From a virus (Duplodnaviria; Heunggongvirae; Uroviricota; Caudoviricetes), in the IMG/VR virus record IMGVR_UViG_2531839433_000005, positions 1-49,376 of that record: DNA of 49,376 nucleotides, one strand, 5' to 3'. The notes below the pieces were generated by a model, which saw only the letters and a program-made list of their open reading frames with translations, did not search any database and had not been told where the DNA came from. Each line of letters starts with the position of its first letter. Position 1 is the stretch's first letter. Of this stretch, positions 1-14,668 are shown piece by piece. Made by a program: the position numbers and the translations under genes.

Positions 1-1131
1 TCAAATGACCAGTTTTTTCCACTCCTTACCACGTGCATCGTTGTAAATATCGGTCATTTTTTGATTCGAATGGCCAAGCAAAATTTGGGTGTCGATCCCT
101 TGCTCCCTGAACAAACGCTCCGACAATGATCGCTGTTCATGGAAAGAGGGTGGGGTACCATTAGCGCACCAGTTGTAATCTACAGAGTCCCGCGCTTTTT
201 TAAATGCAACTGTTAACGTTGCTGGCTTAACCATCCCGCCGCGCTTGGCTGTCCCTTTCGCATGATGGTGGTGCAATAGCCACGGACTAAGAACGCAATC
301 GCGACAGGATGACACCACATCATCCAGGGTGAGATTTAATTTATTGCAACGCAGAGCAAGAGGGATGGCAATCCGGGTTCCTGTTTTTTGCTGTTCGACA
401 TGAAGATAACCATCCCGGATATCCGAAAATTGCATTTTGCAAATATCTGAAAGGCGCTGGCCTGTCATCAGTGCCAGCAGCATGCCGCGCTGTAAAAAGT
501 AACCATCCTTTTCCGCTGCGTTATAAATCATCATCCACTCATCAAAAGTCAGTCGCTGTCTTGATATCCGCACCTGCGGTTTTTTTGCCGATTCTGCAGG
601 GTTAAAGCCTGGCGGAACATCGCCTGTTTGCTGAGCTTCTCGGAAAACATCGATCAGTACCTTCCTGAAAATTTGTCCCATTCTGTTATGTCCTCTGGCC
701 TTGTACTCTTCCAGCACCGATACCACATCTTTTACGGTTATGGCATCTAACGGTCTGGTGCCAAAACGTTCATCAAATACCCTGAGAGGGGCCGCTTTTT
801 GTTTCAGCGTGTTGAGTTTGATCTCTCCGTTTTCATATCTTTCCTGTTGAATTTTTCTGTAATTATTCAGAAAAATGGAAACGGTTGATGAACCGCCGGT
901 ATCATTAATAATTTTCTCCTGCAGACTGAGCATTTGTTTCATTTGCTGCCTGGCAAGACGGCTGTTCGCTTCTGCTGCAATAGTTTCTGCCAGTTTCTGG
1001 TCAATACTGCCGAGACCGTGATTTTTGCCTGTTATGGGATGCCTGTAACGCCAGTAAACTTTGTTATTTCTTTTGTCAAAATACGGAGATAATCCCGGAA
1101 CATCAGTTTTATATTTTCGCGGGCGCGCCAT
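1..1131 (-). CDS. int: Phage tyrosine integrase
   Basis: 376-aa ORF at the prophage end; C-terminal region carries R (TGQRLSD), HxxR (FHEQRS) and terminal Tyr (MTDIY) motifs typical of tyrosine recombinases; start overlaps the xis-like ORF. Confidence 0.85.
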   Translation of the reverse strand: MARPRKYKTDVPGLSPYFDKRNNKVYWRYRHPITGKNHGLGSIDQKLAETIAAEANSRLARQQMKQMLSLQEKIINDTGGSSTVSIFLNNYRKIQQERYENGEIKLNTLKQKAAPLRVFDERFGTRPLDAITVKDVVSVLEEYKARGHNRMGQIFRKVLIDVFREAQQTGDVPPGFNPAESAKKPQVRISRQRLTFDEWMMIYNAAEKDGYFLQRGMLLALMTGQRLSDICKMQFSDIRDGYLHVEQQKTGTRIAIPLALRCNKLNLTLDDVVSSCRDCVLSPWLLHHHHAKGTAKRGGMVKPATLTVAFKKARDSVDYNWCANGTPPSFHEQRSLSERLFREQGIDTQILLGHSNQKMTDIYNDARGKEWKKLVI

Positions 1132-1357
1132 CTTCCAGTATCCTCTTCAAGGCTGGGTGATCTGTAGCGATCACCTCCGGCTTGTTTACCATTCCGACAA
1201 AGCGAGCTTGCGGATCCACTCGCCAGTGTCTTCCAACTTTTTTGGGAAGAGGAAATATCATTCCGGCTTTAGCGTATTTACTTAACGTGCCCGGAGTAGG
1301 GACCGGATCGCTGAATTCCTCTTTTGCCCACTCAGTGAGCAGAATAAGTCTTGCCAT
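1109..1357 (-). CDS. xis: Excisionase-like small DNA-binding protein
   Basis: 82-aa basic ORF immediately upstream of and overlapping int on the same strand, the usual xis position. Confidence 0.55.
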   Translation of the reverse strand: MARLILLTEWAKEEFSDPVPTPGTLSKYAKAGMIFPLPKKVGRHWRVDPQARFVGMVNKPEVIATDHPALKRILEDGAPAKI

Positions 1358-1421
1358 GAGCGTCGTTCGCTAATCATGGTCGTCGCCACTATAGCTGGTG
1401 GGCGACGACCGGGGTTGAACA

Positions 1422-3893
1422 TTAAAAATCAGCCTGACTCGGGATCAGTTTTTGCCAGATAGCTGAAACGTATTTTGCCTGGTAACGAGCGTCATCAAGT
1501 GCATTATGGCGCTCACCTTCGAATGGGATAGCAGTTCTGGCATCGAAGTCTATGGCTTTCCCCAGCTCAACGATTGTGCGTACATCGCGATCGTTGTAGT
1601 AACGCCACGGGCAGGGGATCCCCTGCCGCTCGTATGAACGGCGCAAAATAGTGTTGTCGAAGTTGGCTCCATTTCCCCAGACCTGAACAAAAAATTCACC
1701 GGAGTTTTCGTCGATAAATTCCCGCAATTGTAACAGTGCATCATCTAACGGGATTTCATCGGTCATAATGGCAGATTGCGCTTCGCGTGATTGTTTAAGC
1801 CACCATTTAATGGTGTCCCGATCAATGACTCCGCCAGCAGTTTCCAGATCGATAGTCTTACTAAATTCCGGTCCCATATCTCCGGTTTGCGGATCGAAAA
1901 ATATTGCACCTATTGAGATAATCGGGGCATCGGGATTTTTTCCCATGGTTTCAAGGTCGATCATCAGATGAATCCCCGCTCTGCTGGTGGATGTGAGATT
2001 ATGATGACCGTTCGCCTTAATTAAGGGATCTGACGCCTCGCCAGTTTCACTATCGCTGGCATGATGCTGATTGCCGCCAGTGTTCTCCTTGTGCTGATGC
2101 GCAGTGCCTTCCATTTCCTCCGGATCATTTTCCTGAACTTCAGGCTGATTCTCTCCATCGAATATTTCCTGGTATGTTGCGTCACCCATCACCGCACCAC
2201 AATCAGGGCAGTTGCCGCCACCGCTCTGACCGCAGGCGGTGCAGATCTTTTCCGGTTCCTGTTGCACTACTGGTTCAGGTTGTTTCGTTTCTGGCTCGTT
2301 TTGTTGCGTATTTGGGCTGTTTTGTTCCGCTTTCTGGTCGTTCTGTTCCGTTTCTTGCTGGTTCTGGTTCGCAGAATCGCGGGTCTGGATCCCCTTAACC
2401 CATTTCGGATCATTCGGGTCGCTAATCCCTTCAACAAATTCACCACGTGATACTGCAAGCAGTTCATCGGCGTCAGGCTGGCTGATATTGGCTGCCTGCA
2501 TAATTTTGTTTACTTCGTCAGCGGTAACTTTTACTGACCCTGGTTGTGCGGTCGTGTCAGATGCACCAGTATTTTGTTGTGAACCTGAGTATGTACCGTT
2601 TTTGCGGGCGAAATATTCTTCTTTCGTGATTTCAGTAGCCCCAGCAGACAGCGCCTTATCCAGACCAGAAAGTTTGTTTGCGCGACCGTATTTTTCGCCA
2701 TCCTTGTCGGTGAAGAGGAAGTAGAACGGCCCCTCACGTTCTACAGATGGTTCGACTTCCACTTTGCATTCGGTTTTTTCGTTGTCTGGAATTGCCGTTT
2801 CCACTGCATCAGTTTCTGGTACTGGCGACGAGAGAGTATCAGTTGCGCTCTGATTTGTTCCTTCATCTTCAAACACGCCCTTTGTAGTCAGGTATTCAGT
2901 AATGTATTTGTTCAGTGCCACAGGGTCTTTGTGAATGTCGATCGGACGTTCACGGACAAGGCCAAAAATAGTCTGGCGGTCGTAGCGAAGGGCATCAGGC
3001 TGTTTGCGCATTGATGCCGAGATACGCTTCCAGTCTTCGCGGTCGTTGTCGATAACTTCATTTTTTGCCCAGCGATGGATGCTGCCGTCAATGTTTCCGG
3101 CATCCACATCACCAGGCCAGAGAGCGTAGGCCAGTTCGTCATCCAGTGTTTTCCATGTCTGCTTGTATTCGCGATGAATGGCAGCAATGACCAGGTTGAT
3201 TTTTCCTGTTGAATTTTCAGTGTGCTGTTGATTGGCTCTGGCGCGGGCGAGATCAACAACAGACGTGTATTTTCCGGTTTCCTTGCGTTCACCTTCGCGA
3301 CGTTTTTTCCAGATGCGCATCTCTGCCTGAATTTCGGGCCATTTGGCACCAGGCTTACATTTATGCTTAACCCACCCGATGGCATGCAGCTTAAGCTCCG
3401 GATACATGGCGTTAACTTCTGGCATTTTCATCAACGCTTCAACGATATGTCCGTCGAATGTTGCCATGTCTTCCTGCAACAATTCCTGCGCGCTAATCAC
3501 CATATCAACGGTGATGTTTTCACATGTGTCGAACTTAACCATGACAGCGTTCTGTACTTCAGGGGCCAGCTTGTCAAAAGTGACGTTCATCGGATCTGAT
3601 TCAGTCTCAACCGGGACAAAGGAAGCAGACTCCTCATCCCAGCGGTTTTCCTGCATATATTCAGCATCCCAGGAATCGAGGGCAGGGCGGGGTATACCGG
3701 GTTTATCCTCGCAAACAAGAAATTTATAAGCGCAGTCCTGAGCAGCCGGATAATGTTCCAGGAATTGCCAGTGAAATTTTGCTCGTGCACGGCGTTCGTC
3801 GCCAGCTTCAATGGCTGTGGCTACAGCCACAGCGCCTTCTTCCCTTGTTGCCAGTTCGTCAGGAATAGCGGCGCAAATAAAGACTTTACTCAT
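1422..3893 (-). CDS. Putative exonuclease with C-terminal DnaQ-like (DEDDh) 3'-5' exonuclease domain
   Basis: 823-aa ORF; C-terminal motifs LMIDLETMG (Exo I), WGNGANFD (Exo II), HNALDDARYQ (Exo III); Cys-rich CTACGQ..CPDCG zinc-ribbon-like motif; Q/E/N-rich linker encoded by imperfect 21-bp tandem repeats. Confidence 0.7.
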   Translation of the reverse strand: MSKVFICAAIPDELATREEGAVAVATAIEAGDERRARAKFHWQFLEHYPAAQDCAYKFLVCEDKPGIPRPALDSWDAEYMQENRWDEESASFVPVETESDPMNVTFDKLAPEVQNAVMVKFDTCENITVDMVISAQELLQEDMATFDGHIVEALMKMPEVNAMYPELKLHAIGWVKHKCKPGAKWPEIQAEMRIWKKRREGERKETGKYTSVVDLARARANQQHTENSTGKINLVIAAIHREYKQTWKTLDDELAYALWPGDVDAGNIDGSIHRWAKNEVIDNDREDWKRISASMRKQPDALRYDRQTIFGLVRERPIDIHKDPVALNKYITEYLTTKGVFEDEGTNQSATDTLSSPVPETDAVETAIPDNEKTECKVEVEPSVEREGPFYFLFTDKDGEKYGRANKLSGLDKALSAGATEITKEEYFARKNGTYSGSQQNTGASDTTAQPGSVKVTADEVNKIMQAANISQPDADELLAVSRGEFVEGISDPNDPKWVKGIQTRDSANQNQQETEQNDQKAEQNSPNTQQNEPETKQPEPVVQQEPEKICTACGQSGGGNCPDCGAVMGDATYQEIFDGENQPEVQENDPEEMEGTAHQHKENTGGNQHHASDSETGEASDPLIKANGHHNLTSTSRAGIHLMIDLETMGKNPDAPIISIGAIFFDPQTGDMGPEFSKTIDLETAGGVIDRDTIKWWLKQSREAQSAIMTDEIPLDDALLQLREFIDENSGEFFVQVWGNGANFDNTILRRSYERQGIPCPWRYYNDRDVRTIVELGKAIDFDARTAIPFEGERHNALDDARYQAKYVSAIWQKLIPSQADF

Positions 3894-10675: not shown

Positions 10676-11230
10676 TCAATTATCTAAAATTGTGCTAAAT
10701 CTTTTTATTACCATTAAGAACGTTATAACAGTGATAAAAAAGGATGCATAGGATAAAAAGCTAACAATATATGCAGGTGCGCGAAAATACCATTTCATTA
10801 AATCTACTGCATTGTCAGGCAGGAAATATATTATCACTGAAAATATAACCAATACTATTGAAGTTAATATTGCATAAGCGACGTTGTGGCATAACTGCTC
10901 ATATATGGTTTTGTTAGTGTTTAATGATATCAATTTGTCTCGGGATTTGTTTCCTTCAATTATGTCTGATATCTTAGTGATGGTTTTTTGTTTTTGTTCA
11001 TAAATCATTATTACTGCACTCATTAATAGTGCTGTTGTAATAGCCCCGAAGTTAACGAAGACGGAAGCAATTGCCGGTTTCATTATTCCGTATGTCCAGC
11101 ACAGAACGAAAGAAAGAGATAACGGAACAATAAAATGTACGATAATGTCGCTCATCAACATTGTTCCACGCTGATCTGACATTGTTTTGTAGTGTTTTAT
11201 TATTACACCCAGCACATTTATTTTATTCAT
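10676..11230 (-). CDS. Multi-pass integral membrane protein (candidate effector of two-gene cassette)
   Basis: 184 aa with about four hydrophobic helix-length segments; start overlaps upstream stop (ATGA); strongly AT-rich codon usage unlike flanking phage genes. Confidence 0.6.
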   Translation of the reverse strand: MNKINVLGVIIKHYKTMSDQRGTMLMSDIIVHFIVPLSLSFVLCWTYGIMKPAIASVFVNFGAITTALLMSAVIMIYEQKQKTITKISDIIEGNKSRDKLISLNTNKTIYEQLCHNVAYAILTSIVLVIFSVIIYFLPDNAVDLMKWYFRAPAYIVSFLSYASFFITVITFLMVIKRFSTILDN

Positions 11231-12159
11231 ATAATCACCCCTTTGTTTCCGCTATGCAGTTCTAACAATATATCATTAGAAAGGTTTTTTATCGTGTCAT
11301 GAAGTGCTGTTAGATCAGGTATGCCTGTTAATGGGTCGATTTTTAAATCATTATCATCTAACTCTGCGGAAATTCCTTTTTTTAGTATGGTCTCATAATT
11401 GAAAACGACAGTCCGACTGCCGAGTTGTAAGCTTACTTTTATTGCATCACATTTATCTTCAATAATCTCAATGATGTTTCCTATATTCTTGTTTCTTAAA
11501 TCCCTGAAACTTCCGAACATGCCATTGTTTGCTTTTATTATTAAGTCTGTCTTGATGTTTGTTTTGTTTTGACCAAAGGAATCAGCAATGTCTTTTGGTG
11601 CTTTATATCCTTGAGCCTTAATTTGTTTTAATTCGGAATTGAGAATATATTGAGGGATTTTCTTATGATGTAATGGATTGATTCTTGCTTCGAGTTGAAA
11701 TTTGTTTTTTAGATATTCAGTGATAGAATCAGAAAGGACACCTCGAGCAGAAATATTATCGCAAGAGTGGAATGCAATAATTCCTTCTTCAAGGGTGTCT
11801 GGTAGGTATATTAAAATATAACGTTCTTTGAGTGTTACATCATAAGCAGTTGTCCTATAGTGGATTTTTTTGAGTTTTACATCTTTTATTTCACTGCTTT
11901 CTCCATATTTCCCAACTTTTATATAACCATATATAATTTTCTTTGAGTTATCAAAGTGAAGTTTAGCGTGTTGTTCCAGAGATATTTTAGTTTTGGATAC
12001 GCCAAACTCGATAGGGGTGTTTTTATATAGAGTAAAATAATCAACAAAAAGTTCATATGCCGTTTTTTTATTACTTAAACCCAATTCATTAAGTTTTTTG
12101 CTGGCTCGACTGCCTTTATGGGTCAATACGCGGAATGAATAGAAATTAACGCTGTGCAT
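11227..12159 (-). CDS. Cytoplasmic protein of unknown function (candidate sensor of two-gene cassette)
   Basis: 310-aa Lys/Ile/Asn-rich ORF, no recognisable catalytic motif; translationally coupled to downstream membrane protein. Confidence 0.6.
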   Translation of the reverse strand: MHSVNFYSFRVLTHKGSRASKKLNELGLSNKKTAYELFVDYFTLYKNTPIEFGVSKTKISLEQHAKLHFDNSKKIIYGYIKVGKYGESSEIKDVKLKKIHYRTTAYDVTLKERYILIYLPDTLEEGIIAFHSCDNISARGVLSDSITEYLKNKFQLEARINPLHHKKIPQYILNSELKQIKAQGYKAPKDIADSFGQNKTNIKTDLIIKANNGMFGSFRDLRNKNIGNIIEIIEDKCDAIKVSLQLGSRTVVFNYETILKKGISAELDDNDLKIDPLTGIPDLTALHDTIKNLSNDILLELHSGNKGVII

Positions 12160-12489
12160 GAAAAGTCCTTTTGAACATATAGGAGTATACTAGAACATAA
12201 ATAGATGCAATGCATAAAGGAAAAGCTACCGCAGGGCGAACTCACCCACCGATAACTCTTAACTGGTTGTTTGTAAAAGATAATACATAAATTTGGGTCT
12301 GTGTAAAGAGGTAAGCATCGTCAGGGCAAGGGAGATGTGTTAGGCAATATTGGTAAAATTTACGTTGAGGATAAAAACGGTTTGCGGGAAAAGGAGAGTT
12401 AAGTAGAATTGCTGCGGGTGCTTGAGGCTATCTGTCTCAGGCATGAACACCAAAAGGCAGATAGAGAAAAGCCCCAGTTAACATTACGC

Positions 12490-12560
12490 GTCCTGCAAGA
12501 CGCCTAACATTAATCTGAGGCCCAATCTATGTCTCACAAATGTAGGTTAGCCTCTTACGT
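12490..12560 (-). ncRNA. Putative Sok-like antisense RNA (position inferred, not seen directly)
   Basis: In hok/sok loci the antitoxin RNA is antisense to the mok translation-initiation region (mok ATG at 12529); coordinates approximate. Confidence 0.25.
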
Positions 12561-12585
12561 GCCGAAAGGCAAGGAGAAGCAGGCT

Positions 12586-12741
12586 ATGAAGCAGCAAAAG
12601 GCGATGTTAATCGCCCTGATCGTCATCTGTTTAACCGTCATAGTGACGGCACTGGTAACGAGGAAAGACCTCTGCGAGGTACGAATCCGAACCGGCCAGA
12701 CGGAGGTCGCTGTCTTCACAGCTTACGAACCTGAGGAGTAA
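12586..12741 (+). CDS. hok: Hok/Gef-family type I toxin
   Basis: 51-aa product MKQQKAMLIALIVICLTVIVTALVTRKDLCEVRIRTGQTEVAVFTAYEPEE matches the Hok/Gef family (HokD/RelF-like as recalled); upstream in-frame 70-codon extension from 12529 corresponds to a mok-like leader. Confidence 0.85.
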   Translation: MKQQKAMLIALIVICLTVIVTALVTRKDLCEVRIRTGQTEVAVFTAYEPEE

Positions 12742-12808
12742 GAGACCAGGCGGGGGCGAAATCCCTCGCCACCTCTGATGTGTCAGGCATCCTCAACGCA
12801 CCCGCACT

Positions 12809-12833
12809 TAACCCGCTTCGGCGGGTTTTTTAT
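12809..12833 (+). terminator. Rho-independent terminator (copy 1)
   Basis: Hairpin AACCCGC-TTCG-GCGGGTT followed by T-run. Confidence 0.6.
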
Positions 12834-12880
12834 TGGTTGACAAAATTATGAATATGCACCAATATCTTGGTTGACAAAAG
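12834..12880 (+). promoter_or_regulatory. Candidate promoter with direct-repeat operator
   Basis: TTGGTTGACAAAA at 12834..12846 and 12867..12880 (33 bp apart); -35 TTGACA 12837..12842, candidate -10 CAATAT 12860..12865. Confidence 0.4.
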
Positions 12881-12914
12881 TCGTTTTTTGCACGGATTAG
12901 GCGGAGAAGTGTCT

Positions 12915-13508
12915 ATGCAGAACCATCCATTCCCTTGGGAGTTCTTTCCTGAGTTAACAGAGGAGCGTTTAACCATTATAGCTGAGGAGTTGCTCAGGAT
13001 ACAGGATATTACTCATGAGTTATTGTCATCGCCCTATGATGATAATTACACTCGTGGTGGTTGTACATTTGGGCGTCAGCGGCAGGCGTTGCTACAAATG
13101 TGCGTACGAAAGACATATGACTGGTTAAGACTACTTAATCCTGGCATGGATCTTACGTTTTCAATTGGGAATGTCCCTATTCGTTTCTTTACTGATGACG
13201 CAGATAACCCCAAGAAACGCGGTTTTTTCAAAAGAAATGATGCTGATCGACTCTTTGAGTCAGAGGAGACTACTCCAACTATGCATCGCTTTGTGGTTGA
13301 AAAGCCTGAATTTGAAGGCGAGGGTGGTAGAGTCATTTTTAATGGCTATAACGTGTTTGGTGAGATCGTGTCAACTTGGACATATGGTGCGGACCGTGTT
13401 GTTATGCTGAACTCTGTCGATGATGTACCTCCAGCACCGGTACCTATCGAACTAGAACCTATCAGTGCGTCTAAGACTGAGAAGGAAAAGAAACAAAATA
13501 GCAAATAG
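12915..13508 (+). CDS. Hypothetical protein (module gene A)
   Basis: 197 aa from ATG with GGAG RBS (TTG at 12867 is an alternative start); no recognisable motif. Confidence 0.55.
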   Translation: MQNHPFPWEFFPELTEERLTIIAEELLRIQDITHELLSSPYDDNYTRGGCTFGRQRQALLQMCVRKTYDWLRLLNPGMDLTFSIGNVPIRFFTDDADNPKKRGFFKRNDADRLFESEETTPTMHRFVVEKPEFEGEGGRVIFNGYNVFGEIVSTWTYGADRVVMLNSVDDVPPAPVPIELEPISASKTEKEKKQNSK

Positions 13509-13518
13509 TGGGTGAAAT

Positions 13519-14640
13519 GTGTTTAACGGTACTAATTTAAGACTTGCTCGTCTGTATCACGAGCTATCTCTGGAGCAGGTTGCTGAGAAGGTTGAAAAAA
13601 CACGCCAGTATGTACAGCGACTGGAGTCTGGTTCAGCTACTCCATCCCCAGAGCTTATAAATAAATTAGCCGAGGTTTTGCGCGTGAAGCCCGCCTTTTT
13701 CGAAGGGCAGGAACATTCTCCTGTTAATGAAGAGATTGTACATTTTCGTAAACGCGCCTCGACAAGGATGTCAACGAAGCTATCAACACTCGCTAAGGCT
13801 GAGTTTTATCGTCGTTTTATTGATGTATTTGAAGATAACCTTAATTTGTCACCTGTTCGATTTCCTGAATTTCGTGTCCATACACAAGAAGATATCGAGC
13901 GAGCGGCAGAAAAATGTCGTATTGAGTGGGGCTTAGGCTTTGGCCCAATTGAAAATATGACTCGCCTTGCCGAGAAACTTGGGGCGTTTGTTACTTCATT
14001 TGACTCCGTTTCGGATGAAGTAGATGCACTGTCTGTTCCTCTACGAAGGCCTTTTATTGTTCGAAATACAGCTAAAAATTCACCTTGTAGGCAACGCTTT
14101 GATATTGCTCATGAGGTTGCCCATTTGATTCTTCATGAAGGAATTTCTACTGGGGATAGATTAACTGAATCCCAGGCAAACCGTTTTGCCTCTGCTCTGT
14201 TGCTTCCCAGAACGTCGATGGCGAAATATTTTCCAAGACCTGTGGGGGGGAGGATAAATTGGCAGGGACTAAGCCAATTTAAGTTGACATGGAAAGTAAG
14301 TAAGGCTGCCATTGTTTACAGGGCTCATCAATTAGGACTTTTGACTGATGAGCAGTACAGAACTGCATTTATGGGGTTGAAACGGAAAGGGGAAGCTATT
14401 GATGAAAAAGAAGATTATCTAATCCCTCATGAGCGTCCTGAGTTATTCCGTCGGGCTTTATCGTTTTTATTTGAAGAGTTAGGATACGACCCACAGCGTA
14501 TAGCTGATGAAATGGATATAGAAGTGGACATTTTTTATGAGTTAGCAGGAGATGATCTTCCTGCGGTTCATGAACTGCCAGGAAGTGGTGATGTTGTTTC
14601 ACTACAATCTTACCGAACTCTTAGAGGCAAAATTCACTAG
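13519..14640 (+). CDS. XRE-family HTH fused to ImmA/IrrE-type zinc metallopeptidase (module gene B)
   Basis: N-terminal HTH (LSLEQVAEKVEKTRQYVQRLESG); HExxH motif HEVAHLILHE; GTG start 10 nt after the upstream stop. Confidence 0.75.
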   Translation: MFNGTNLRLARLYHELSLEQVAEKVEKTRQYVQRLESGSATPSPELINKLAEVLRVKPAFFEGQEHSPVNEEIVHFRKRASTRMSTKLSTLAKAEFYRRFIDVFEDNLNLSPVRFPEFRVHTQEDIERAAEKCRIEWGLGFGPIENMTRLAEKLGAFVTSFDSVSDEVDALSVPLRRPFIVRNTAKNSPCRQRFDIAHEVAHLILHEGISTGDRLTESQANRFASALLLPRTSMAKYFPRPVGGRINWQGLSQFKLTWKVSKAAIVYRAHQLGLLTDEQYRTAFMGLKRKGEAIDEKEDYLIPHERPELFRRALSFLFEELGYDPQRIADEMDIEVDIFYELAGDDLPAVHELPGSGDVVSLQSYRTLRGKIH

Positions 14641-14643
14641 GCA

Positions 14644-14668
14644 TAACCCGCTTCGGCGGGTTTTTTGT
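14644..14668 (+). terminator. Rho-independent terminator (copy 2, same hairpin as 12809..12833)
   Basis: AACCCGCTTCGGCGGGTTTTTT repeated. Confidence 0.6.

What the first reader, a model, noticed from the sequence alone, without database searches (positions are those of the whole stretch)
12834..14668. Module of an unknown 197-aa protein plus an HTH-ImmA/IrrE metallopeptidase fusion, behind a direct-repeat operator
Gene B fuses an XRE-type HTH to a zinc peptidase with an intact HExxH motif (HEVAHLILHE). Such HTH/peptidase pairs or fusions act as signal-cleavable repressors (ImmR/ImmA, CapH/CapP) or as antitoxins, so gene A is plausibly the regulated effector or toxin. The promoter carries the 13-bp repeat TTGGTTGACAAAA twice, 33 bp apart, overlapping a -35 TTGACA, a likely autoregulatory operator. 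The module sits between hok and the nin-like genes.
Basis: partly seen in the sequence, partly recalled or inferred. Interest (0 to 1): 0.75.

Follow-up and report, generated by a model that had tools for sequence, protein, structure and literature searches.

The report
Known RosmerTA toxin-antitoxin cassette in prophage
This is a two-gene toxin-antitoxin cassette of the already described RosmerTA type, inserted in a lambda-like E. coli prophage; essentially the same module was studied in 2021, so it is real but not new.

Summary
A 197-aa gene (12915-13508) is followed 10 nt later by a 373-aa XRE-HTH/M78 zinc-peptidase fusion (13519-14640; HEVAH at residues 198-202).

The pair is a RosmerTA system. 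PADLOC scores gene A as RmrT (E 5.5e-93) and gene B as RmrA (E 8e-201).

It is essentially the prophage module of E. coli E101 published by Rousset et al. (2021). The window's RmrA differs by one residue from their antidote WP_000481765.1. In that work the toxin makes clpP essential, and a T46S change suppresses this. The family also includes the validated Vibrio mimicus Vmi480/Vmi470 pair.

New here:
- The cassette is a 1,835-bp insertion at the hok terminator, flanked by a duplicated 23-bp terminator.
- The upstream unit GTTGACAAA-N10-TGCA occurs twice, about 34 bp apart, in the window and all 23 complete pairs found elsewhere, down to 32% toxin identity. Only the first copy carries a -10 (24/24 versus 0/24).
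- An HTH residue co-varies with an operator base.

The toxin's biochemical activity remains unknown: no Pfam family, no solved relative, only weak nuclease-like fold hints. Verdict: already known, low interest.

The parts
12809..12831 (+). hok terminator; left copy of the 23-bp direct repeat TAACCCGCTTCGGCGGGTTTTTT that bounds the cassette
   Evidence: Terminator scan finds a hairpin at 12810-12827 followed by a T run. The exact 23-bp duplicate was located. The alignment with phage PPompW_132418 is collinear up to this point.
12836..12859 (+). Operator-like unit O1 (GTTGACAAA-N10-TGCAC), overlapping the -35 hexamer TTGACA (12837-12842) and the spacer of the cassette promoter
   Evidence: Position matrix over 24 loci: GTTGAC and TGCA are invariant or nearly so.
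12860..12865 (+). -10 hexamer CAATAT, 17 bp after TTGACA
   Evidence: A at position 2 and T at position 6 are present at this offset after O1 in 24 of 24 loci, and after O2 in 0 of 24. The stricter consensus scan missed it because only 3 of 6 bases match.
12870..12893 (+). Operator-like unit O2 (GTTGACAAA-N10-TGCAC), with no -10; it lies over the inferred transcription start and 5' leader
   Evidence: Spacing from O1 is 34 bp in 19 of 24 loci (range 31-34).
12915..13508 (+). rmrT: 197-aa toxin of the Vmi480 / E101_02645 family (RefSeq WP_001179381.1)
   Evidence: PADLOC RmrT PDLC03929, E 5.5e-93, full length. phrog_5786. No Pfam family. 80 homologues in one search and 420 cluster representatives in another. 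T46, the site of the published suppressor, lies in the conserved DDNYTRG motif.
13519..14640 (+). rmrA: 373-aa antitoxin and presumed autorepressor, an XRE HTH fused to an ImmA/IrrE (M78) zinc peptidase with a C-terminal helical region (RefSeq WP_000481764.1)
   Evidence: PADLOC RmrA PDLC03943, E 8e-201. Pfam HTH_3 plus Peptidase_M78. H198, E199, H202, H206 and E217 are invariant in 23 homologues and in 50 database relatives. AF2 model: pLDDT 92.3, pTM 0.88.
14110..14124 (+). Codons for the HEVAH zinc-binding motif (residues 198-202)
14244..14250 (+). G7 homopolymer inside rmrA (codons for V242-G243-G244)
   Evidence: It is G6 in strain ETEC4090, where rmrA is annotated as 245-aa and 118-aa pieces next to an intact rmrT.
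14644..14666 (+). Cassette terminator; right copy of the 23-bp direct repeat
   Evidence: Hairpin at 14645-14662 followed by a T run. Exact duplicate of 12809-12831.

Best explanation
The region is a self-contained RosmerTA toxin-antitoxin cassette of the Vmi480/Vmi470 subfamily. It was inserted as a 1,835-bp unit (12832-14666) at the hok terminator of an ompW-integrated lambdoid prophage found mainly in enterotoxigenic E. coli.

Shown here or in the cited papers:
- rmrT encodes a soluble 197-aa toxin, and rmrA the HTH/zinc-peptidase antidote.
- The two genes are always adjacent and co-oriented, 5-35 nt apart or overlapping by a few bases.
- In the near-identical E101 module, toxicity appears when clpP is knocked down, and is relieved by repressing the toxin gene or by a T46S change in it.

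Inferred:
- One sigma-70 promoter (TTGACA, 17 bp, CAATAT) drives both genes.
- RmrA binds through its HTH to two copies of GTTGACAAA-N10-TGCA, one over the -35 and spacer, the other over the transcription start. This would repress its own operon.
- RmrA also neutralises RmrT after translation. Its strictly conserved metallopeptidase site suggests catalysis rather than simple sequestration, and ClpXP is needed to keep the toxin harmless.
- Phage infection, through an unknown trigger, frees RmrT and stops the cell before phage are released (abortive infection). This would protect the lysogen population and the prophage against competing phages.

The biochemical target of RmrT is unknown. My best guess is that it binds or acts on a cytoplasmic macromolecular target, rather than the membrane.
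For: Identity:
- PADLOC gives RmrT at E 5.5e-93 and RmrA at E 8e-201, both full length.
- Millman et al. define RosmerTA as a Zn-peptidase antitoxin plus a toxin of unknown function, cite Luo 2015 and Rousset 2021 as precedents, and could not delete rmrA.
- Rousset et al. describe toxin WP_001179380.1 and antidote WP_000481765.1 on an E101 prophage. The module makes clpP essential, T46S suppresses this, and the effect transfers to K-12.
- That exact antidote accession sits at this locus in strain UMNF18, next to a toxin identical to the window's. The window's RmrA differs from it only by A343V.
- A 2025 preprint explicitly calls the E101 toxin an RmrT. It reports clpX(P) essential only in the three Pectobacteriaceae strains that carry RosmerTA.

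Neutralisation beyond transcription:
- Vmi470 rescues Vmi480 when both are expressed from PBAD, without the native promoter.
- In S. pneumoniae, RipB rescues RipA in trans.

Genetic linkage: RmrT is followed directly by RmrA in 23 of 24 loci from gamma- and betaproteobacteria.

Operator:
- Both units are conserved in all 24 loci examined.
- A -10 with A2 and T6 follows O1 in 24/24 and O2 in 0/24.
- HTH residue 34 tracks the base after TGCA in O1: Arg with C in 13/13, Lys with another base in 9/9, in three separate clades.

Peptidase: the catalytic residues are invariant.

Cassette and context:
- Duplicated terminator.
- The empty site is contiguous in 2,788 of 5,426 E. coli genomes.
- A homologue sits beside an anti-phage DUF499 gene in Tn7-like cargo of A. 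baumannii plasmids.
- Another sits in the same nin-region slot of a Klebsiella lambdoid element.
Against: - No paper I could read tests phage defence for this toxin family. The verified RosmerTA (E. coli OLC-716) has a toxin with no detectable similarity to this one. Tested RosmerTA systems protect only narrowly.
- Binding of RmrA to O1 and O2, cleavage of RmrT, and the way ClpXP acts are all inferred, not shown.
- The residue-base co-variation rests on 22 loci and a rough tree.
- The identity of the window's toxin to WP_001179380.1 is inferred, because that accession was not in the genomes I opened.
- In two genomes rmrA is split by a frameshift while rmrT stays intact. If real, the full-length antitoxin is not always required.
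Confidence: 0.85

Rival explanations
1. The cassette is only an addiction or stabilisation module, or a stress switch, for the mobile element that carries it. It has no role against phages.
For: The experimental data on this toxin family concern toxicity, antidote function and clpP dependence, not phages. It sits next to hok/sok, a classical post-segregational killer. Homologues occur on plasmids and genomic islands. In S. pneumoniae a Rosmer system feeds into competence rather than a shown defence role.
Against: Other RosmerTA systems do protect against phages. A homologue lies beside an anti-phage-associated DUF499 gene in transposon cargo. The position is a typical accessory-gene (moron) slot in prophages, and PADLOC lists this toxin family as RmrT. 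An integrated prophage gains little from plasmid-style addiction.
Confidence: 0.25
2. RmrA works like ImmR/ImmA or CapH/CapP fused into one chain. It acts purely as a repressor that cuts itself between the HTH and the peptidase when it senses DNA damage or a phage cue, and toxin control is entirely transcriptional.
For: Weak PADLOC matches to CapP (E 2.8e-17) and CapH (E 4.9e-10). The motif H75-F76-R77 between the two domains is invariant in 23 and in 50 relatives. Two operators are conserved. Ernits et al. suggest HTH cleavage for Rosmer-like systems.
Against: Vmi470 neutralises Vmi480 from a foreign promoter, and RipB acts in trans on an IPTG-driven ripA, so control is not only transcriptional. 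The inter-domain segment is modelled with confidence (pLDDT about 83, overall pTM 0.88), not as a free linker. No data link the system to DNA damage. The clpP and clpX dependence points to protein-level control.
Confidence: 0.15
3. RmrT is a divergent PD-(D/E)xK-type nuclease that degrades DNA once released.
Confidence: 0.12

Closest known systems
E. coli E101 prophage toxin-antidote module E101_02645/E101_02644 (Rousset et al. 2021; bioRxiv 10.1101/2020.05.25.114553)
   Same: Same locus type (prophage) and same gene order. The antidote accession WP_000481765.1 differs from the window's RmrA by one residue (A343V), and in strain UMNF18 it is paired with a toxin identical to the window's. T46, the site of the published suppressor, is present.
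   Different: The E101 toxin allele (WP_001179380.1) could not be compared directly. The paper did not describe the promoter or operators, or the insertion structure. It left the biological role open.
Vibrio mimicus Vmi480/Vmi470 toxin-antitoxin pair (Luo et al. 2015, PMC4671572)
   Same: A toxin of about 198 aa comes first, then an HTH/Zn-peptidase antidote of 362 aa after a 5-bp gap, with its own promoter. The toxin is lethal in E. coli and is rescued by the antidote. Rousset et al. report 33% and 42% identity to the E101 proteins.
   Different: It is carried on the genomic island MGIVmi1, not a prophage. I did not have the sequences to align here.
Experimentally verified RosmerTA of E. coli OLC-716 (Millman et al. 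2022)
   Same: RmrA architecture (HTH plus M78 peptidase, with an FR motif after the HTH), a two-gene operon, and an antitoxin that cannot be deleted.
   Different: The toxin is a different family (PDLC03935 versus PDLC03929). No significant similarity was found by BLASTP, by HMM, or by profile-profile comparison (E 0.16 and 0.019). Phage defence is shown only for that system.
RipA/RipB (spr1630/spr1629) Rosmer system of S. pneumoniae (PMC12795458)
   Same: HTH/ImmA-like antitoxin. The toxin makes both the antitoxin and a Clp component (ClpX) essential, which parallels the clpP dependence of the E101 module. RmrA gives a partial NCBIfam match to the spr1629 family (174 bits, below the 335-bit cut-off).
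   Different: RipA targets the DnaN sliding clamp. The RmrT here has no NCBIfam match of any kind and its target is unknown.
ImmR/ImmA (ICEBs1) and CapH/CapP (CBASS regulation)
   Same: An XRE HTH combined with an M78 HExxH peptidase, and control of a harmful or costly downstream function.
   Different: In those systems the repressor and the protease are separate proteins, and the protease cleaves the repressor on a DNA-damage cue. Here they are one chain, the controlled gene is an upstream co-transcribed toxin, and no cleavage has been shown.
PD-lambda-2 (Vassallo et al. 2022, PMC9519451)
   Same: Contains an Xre-peptidase fusion next to a toxin-like gene and defends E. coli against phage.
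   Different: It has three components with a HigB-like first gene. There the Xre-peptidase protein itself is toxic and is neutralised by the HigB-like protein.

Membership tests
RosmerTA (Millman 2022; DefenseFinder and PADLOC definition) | RmrA: a protein with an ImmA/IrrE (M78) zinc-peptidase domain, usually with an N-terminal XRE HTH | tested here: met
   PADLOC RmrA PDLC03943 at E 8e-201, covering 368 of 370 model positions. Pfam HTH_3 plus Peptidase_M78. HExxH and E217 are invariant.
RosmerTA (Millman 2022; DefenseFinder and PADLOC definition) | An adjacent, co-oriented gene belonging to one of the catalogued RmrT toxin families | tested here: met
   PADLOC RmrT PDLC03929 at E 5.5e-93, full length. 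The two genes are adjacent in 23 of 24 loci.
RosmerTA (Millman 2022; DefenseFinder and PADLOC definition) | RmrT is toxic and RmrA neutralises it | not testable with these tools
   Literature only. For the E101 module: clpP knock-down is toxic, and is rescued by repressing the toxin gene or by T46S. For Vmi480/Vmi470: lethality and rescue in E. coli.
RosmerTA (Millman 2022; DefenseFinder and PADLOC definition) | Protection against phage infection | not testable with these tools
   Shown for the OLC-716 system, the Gordonia phage Kita system and S. thermophilus systems, all with other toxin families. I found no test for this toxin family.
RosmerTA (Millman 2022; DefenseFinder and PADLOC definition) | Toxin homologous to the experimentally verified RmrT (not a strict requirement, since RmrT toxins are polymorphic) | tested here: not met
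   BLASTP E 1.1. HMM score -2.5 bits. hhalign E 0.16 and 0.019, probability below 3%. The two toxins match different PADLOC models.
Type II toxin-antitoxin operon with an autoregulating antitoxin | Operator sites for the antitoxin's DNA-binding domain in its own promoter | tested here: inconclusive
   Two conserved GTTGACAAA-N10-TGCA units occur in all 24 loci, and the second has no promoter function. HTH residue 34 co-varies with an operator base. Binding itself was not tested.
ImmR/ImmA and CapH/CapP signal-cleaved repressor pairs | Separate repressor and protease genes, with the repressor cleaved on a DNA-damage signal | tested here: not met
   HTH and peptidase are one 373-aa chain, modelled as one compact unit with pTM 0.88. 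Cleavage cannot be tested here.
PD-(D/E)xK nucleases (considered for RmrT) | The core alpha-beta-beta-beta-alpha-beta fold, recognisable by structure comparison | tested here: inconclusive
PD-(D/E)xK nucleases (considered for RmrT) | A conserved catalytic D...(D/E)xK signature | tested here: not met
   D79 is 63% conserved, D94 68%, D95 77%, E129 71% and K101 71% across 189 family members. Only D42, R54, R90 and R125 are well kept among polar residues.

The most novel reading that the evidence does not exclude
The dependence on ClpXP is the sensing mechanism itself. RmrT is made continuously and is disposed of continuously by the RmrA peptidase together with ClpXP. The cassette would then act as a guard of host proteolysis, firing when a phage inhibits, saturates or diverts ClpXP, or blocks RmrA. 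This would make Vmi480-family RosmerTA systems a surveillance device for a host housekeeping function. The conserved double operator would set the steady-state flux. A toxin with a new fold and a new target would be the second novel element.
Probability: 0.15. Interest if true: 0.6.

Novelty: already known. Interest (0 to 1): 0.22.

Why it matters
As a finding it mostly confirms that the first-stage reader can recognise a toxin-antitoxin or defence cassette from raw sequence. The system type was named in 2022. This very module was studied genetically in 2021. Standard defence-finding tools would label it at once.

What remains open concerns the whole RosmerTA class:
- what the Vmi480-family toxin does;
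- why cells carrying these systems need ClpP or ClpX;
- whether the peptidase cuts the toxin, itself or something else;
- what the phage trigger is.

The conserved two-operator promoter and the residue-base co-variation found here give a concrete handle for testing autoregulation.

Tried and rejected
- **Near-identical DNA in phage records.** Only the first ~96 bases of the query (the tail of hok and its terminator) match. The cassette is absent from 50,697 phage records, and tblastn finds one distant hit, in a mislabelled Salmonella contig.
- **Homology between this toxin and the verified OLC-716 RmrT.** BLASTP, an HMM of 189 family members, and two profile-profile comparisons all fall short of significance. 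A resemblance seen by eye in the N-terminal helices (YTRGxxTFGRQR versus TSRGQYFYGE) stays unproven.
- **A sliding-clamp-binding motif in RmrT, by analogy with RipA.** The conserved loop motif D-Q/R-L-F (residues 111-114) does not fit the QLxLF consensus. I dropped the idea; this rests on my own knowledge of the motif.
- **A structured RNA in the 5' leader.** The fold is no better than shuffled sequence (z -0.76), and Rfam finds only sok and a sub-threshold isrK-like match on the hok side.
- **A full sigma-70 consensus promoter.** The strict scan finds none upstream. The promoter became evident only from cross-species conservation.
- **The published toxin accession WP_001179380.1.** It was not in the four genome copies I opened.
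- **RmrA against solved structures by sequence.** Only generic HTH matches appeared.
Full report
**Observation**

- Gene A runs from ATG 12915 to the stop at 13508 (197 aa), with a GGAG eight bases upstream.
- Gene B starts at GTG 13519, ten bases after gene A's stop, and ends at 14640 (373 aa).
- Pfam finds an XRE-type HTH at residues 7-61 and a Peptidase_M78 (ImmA/IrrE) domain at 151-269 in gene B, and nothing in gene A.
- HEVAHLILHE begins at residue 198.
- The 13-bp repeat TTGGTTGACAAAA is exact and occurs only twice in the window, at 12833-12845 and 12867-12879, 34 bp start to start.
- Upstream lies hokD (12586-12741) with a strong sok RNA match. Downstream lie a small ORF, DUF968, RusA and Q.

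**What it is**

PADLOC models identify the pair at once. Gene A is RmrT (PDLC03929, E 5.5e-93, full length) and gene B is RmrA (PDLC03943, E 8e-201).

These are the two components of RosmerTA. Millman et al. defined it as an antitoxin with a Zn-peptidase plus a toxin of unknown function, citing Luo 2015 and Rousset 2021 as earlier examples of this layout. They could not obtain an rmrA deletion. Ernits et al. describe RmrA as a hub antitoxin paired with many unrelated RmrT toxins.

The window is an ompW-integrated lambdoid prophage. It is 100% identical over this stretch to E. coli strain 504239 and four other genomes. The cassette is present in 23 of 5,426 complete E. coli genomes, many of them named ETEC strains (e.g. 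TW10598, TW11681, ETEC4090), always at 99.4% identity or more. It is annotated only as 'hypothetical protein' and 'helix-turn-helix domain-containing protein'.

**It has already been studied**

Rousset et al. (bioRxiv 10.1101/2020.05.25.114553, section 13) found that clpP is essential in E. coli E101 because of a prophage module. The module consists of a domain-less toxin (E101_02645, WP_001179380.1) and a downstream antidote (E101_02644, WP_000481765.1).
- Suppressors of the clpP requirement had lost the prophage or carried T46S in the toxin.
- Repressing the toxin gene relieved the defect.
- Moving the module to K-12 made clpP knock-down harmful, unless the T46S allele was used.
- They report 33% and 42% identity to the Vibrio mimicus Vmi480/Vmi470 pair.

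The antidote accession WP_000481765.1 is annotated at this same locus in strains UMNF18 and 99-3165. In UMNF18 it sits next to a toxin identical to the window's. The window's RmrA differs from it only by A343V. The window's toxin is WP_001179381.1. I could not open a record carrying WP_001179380.1, so near-identity of the toxin alleles is inferred. All copies I saw differ by at most three residues, and T46 is present.

Luo et al. showed that Vmi480 (198 aa) is lethal in E. coli and that Vmi470 (362 aa, HTH plus Zn-peptidase) rescues it, also when both are expressed from PBAD. They could not delete vmi470 alone.

A 2025 preprint refers to the E101 toxin as an RmrT. It finds rmrA essential, and clpX(P) essential only in the three Pectobacteriaceae strains that carry RosmerTA.

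In S. pneumoniae the Rosmer pair RipA/RipB behaves similarly. The toxin makes both ripB and clpX essential, and it targets the DnaN clamp.

**The toxin family**

One search returned 80 relatives of about 197-200 aa, none with a Pfam domain. A profile search of 1.84 billion cluster representatives found 420 at E up to 0.001, almost all stand-alone proteins of about 200 aa.

The closer relatives share DDNYTRG, FGRQR, PxRFFTDD, PKKxGFFRRNxxDQLF and RFVVEKPEFEGEG. Across the wider family only P7, D42, R54, W70, R90, P99, R125 and W155 stay above 85%.

The residues a PD-(D/E)xK nuclease would need are only 63-77% conserved. There is no sequence relative in the PDB and no Pfam family shared by 66 diverse members. 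I therefore treat 'nuclease' as a weak lead.

The toxin shows no significant similarity to the experimentally verified RmrT of E. coli OLC-716, which matches a different PADLOC model. It has no predicted membrane segment, unlike the Gordonia phage Kita RmrT.

**The antitoxin**

H198, E199, H202, H206, E217 and the ANRF motif are invariant in 23 homologues taken from other genomes and in 50 database relatives. The peptidase site is therefore under selection.

H75-F76-R77, between the HTH and the peptidase, is also invariant. The AlphaFold2 model is very confident (pLDDT 92.3, pTM 0.88). It places this segment in an ordered stretch (pLDDT about 83) with a beta-bridge at residue 75, not in a free linker. 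I could not inspect contacts, so I cannot tell whether this segment sits in the active site.

**Linkage and regulation (new here)**

A scan of one genome per species found 24 loci in gamma- and betaproteobacteria. In 23 of them the RmrT gene is followed directly by an RmrA homologue, 5-35 nt downstream or overlapping its stop. The remaining locus holds only a toxin fragment.

Upstream of rmrT, the window and all 23 complete loci carry two copies of GTTGACAAA-N10-TGCA. They are 34 bp apart in 19 of the 24, with a range of 31-34.

The first copy is followed, 17 bp after TTGACA, by a hexamer with A at position 2 and T at position 6 in 24 of 24 cases. In the window this is CAATAT at 12860-12865. 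The second copy never has one (0 of 24).

The first unit is thus a promoter. The second cannot be explained as a promoter, yet it keeps GTTGAC and TGCA at the same offsets. That is what one expects of a protein-binding site placed over the transcription start.

Each unit has partial dyad symmetry (ACAA-N9-TTTG). This becomes perfect in one Pseudomonas locus, TGACAAAA-N6-TTTTGTCA.

Residue 34 of the HTH recognition helix tracks the base after TGCA in O1. Arg goes with C in 13 of 13 loci, and Lys with another base in 9 of 9. The Arg/C state occurs in three separate clades of a rough RmrA tree. This is suggestive, not proof, that RmrA reads these sites.

**The cassette as an insertion (new here)**

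The 23-bp hok terminator TAACCCGCTTCGGCGGGTTTTTT is repeated exactly after rmrA, at 12809-12831 and 14644-14666. I built an artificial 'empty site' by joining hok and its terminator directly to the downstream sequence. It matches as one contiguous piece, at about 94% identity, in many of the 2,788 of 5,426 E. coli genomes that cover at least 80% of it. One of these is a second prophage of UMNF18.

The cassette is therefore a discrete 1,835-bp addition (12832-14666) to a very common prophage backbone.

Relatives sit in the same nin-region slot of a lambdoid element on a Klebsiella plasmid. Others sit in Tn7-like cargo next to an anti-phage-associated DUF499 gene in A. baumannii plasmids. The family is nearly absent from deposited phage genomes (1 of 50,697 records) and occurs on 24 plasmids.

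**How it most likely works**

Shown (here or in the cited papers):
- rmrT is the toxin and rmrA the antidote.
- The two genes are strictly linked.
- The peptidase site is conserved.
- The toxin becomes harmful when ClpP is depleted.
- In related pairs the antidote works even from a foreign promoter.

Inferred:
- RmrA represses the operon at O1 and O2.
- RmrA removes or inactivates RmrT catalytically, with ClpXP completing the job.
- A phage cue upsets this balance and the freed toxin aborts the infection.

The defence role is likely by family membership and by context, but I found no test of it for this toxin family. RosmerTA systems that have been tested protect narrowly.

**Verdict**

The module is already known, both as a named system type and as this specific E. 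coli prophage module. Interest is low. The residual value lies in the conserved double operator, the insertion structure, and the still unknown activity of the toxin.

Noticed in passing
window 10676-12159 (- strand): Two overlapping minus-strand ORFs (184 aa and 310 aa, ATGA overlap) lie between the replication genes and hok. They are annotated hypothetical and have no Pfam or PADLOC match. They sit in an accessory-gene position and may be another unknown accessory or defence pair.
   Followed up: partly
window 12809-12831 and 14644-14666: An exact 23-bp duplication of the hok terminator brackets the cassette. The cassette-free arrangement is contiguous in thousands of E. coli prophages. The mechanism of insertion is unknown: it could be recombination at the terminator or target duplication.
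   Followed up: partly
window 14244-14250: A G7 run lies inside rmrA. In ETEC4090 it is G6, and rmrA is annotated as 245-aa and 118-aa pieces beside an intact rmrT. Strain 2011EL-1370-2 also has a 1-nt shorter match and an extra annotated ORF, but I did not open that record. This could be a sequencing error or real frameshift variation. If real, the C-terminal 118 residues need not be joined to the rest of the protein.
   Followed up: partly
window 12750-12831: A sub-threshold Rfam match to the Hfq-binding sRNA isrK (31.8 bits against a gathering score of 50, E 2e-4) covers the hok 3' region and its terminator. sok matches strongly at 12416-12591.
   Followed up: no
RmrA residue 34 (window 13618-13620) versus the base after TGCA of O1 (window 12859): Arg34 goes with C (13/13) and Lys34 with A, G or T (9/9) across 22 loci, in three separate clades. 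This may be a specificity-determining contact.
   Followed up: partly
RmrT residue 46 (window 13050-13052): The published loss-of-toxicity change T46S is the natural residue in several homologues (DDNYSR in P0022, P0058 and P0060). The effect of Ser at this position must therefore depend on context, or be partial.
   Followed up: no
RmrA residues 75-77 (window 13741-13749): H-F-R between the HTH and the peptidase is invariant in 23 and in 50 relatives. It is modelled in an ordered segment with a beta-bridge. The verified OLC-716 RmrA also has FR at the matching place. It could be a pseudo-substrate or a self-cleavage site.
   Followed up: partly
L030 5001-6720; L031 2995-4725: Homologous cassettes occupy the same slot, between the replication genes and DinI/RusA/Q, of a lambdoid element on a Klebsiella plasmid. 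They also occur in Tn7-like transposon cargo next to an anti-phage DUF499 gene on A. baumannii plasmids.
   Followed up: partly
window, downstream of Q and in the lysis region (from L001 annotation): The prophage carries a tRNA cluster (Ile, Thr, Gly) after Q, an IS66-family ISCro1 insertion after the lysis genes, and a frameshifted Cro/CI gene.
   Followed up: no
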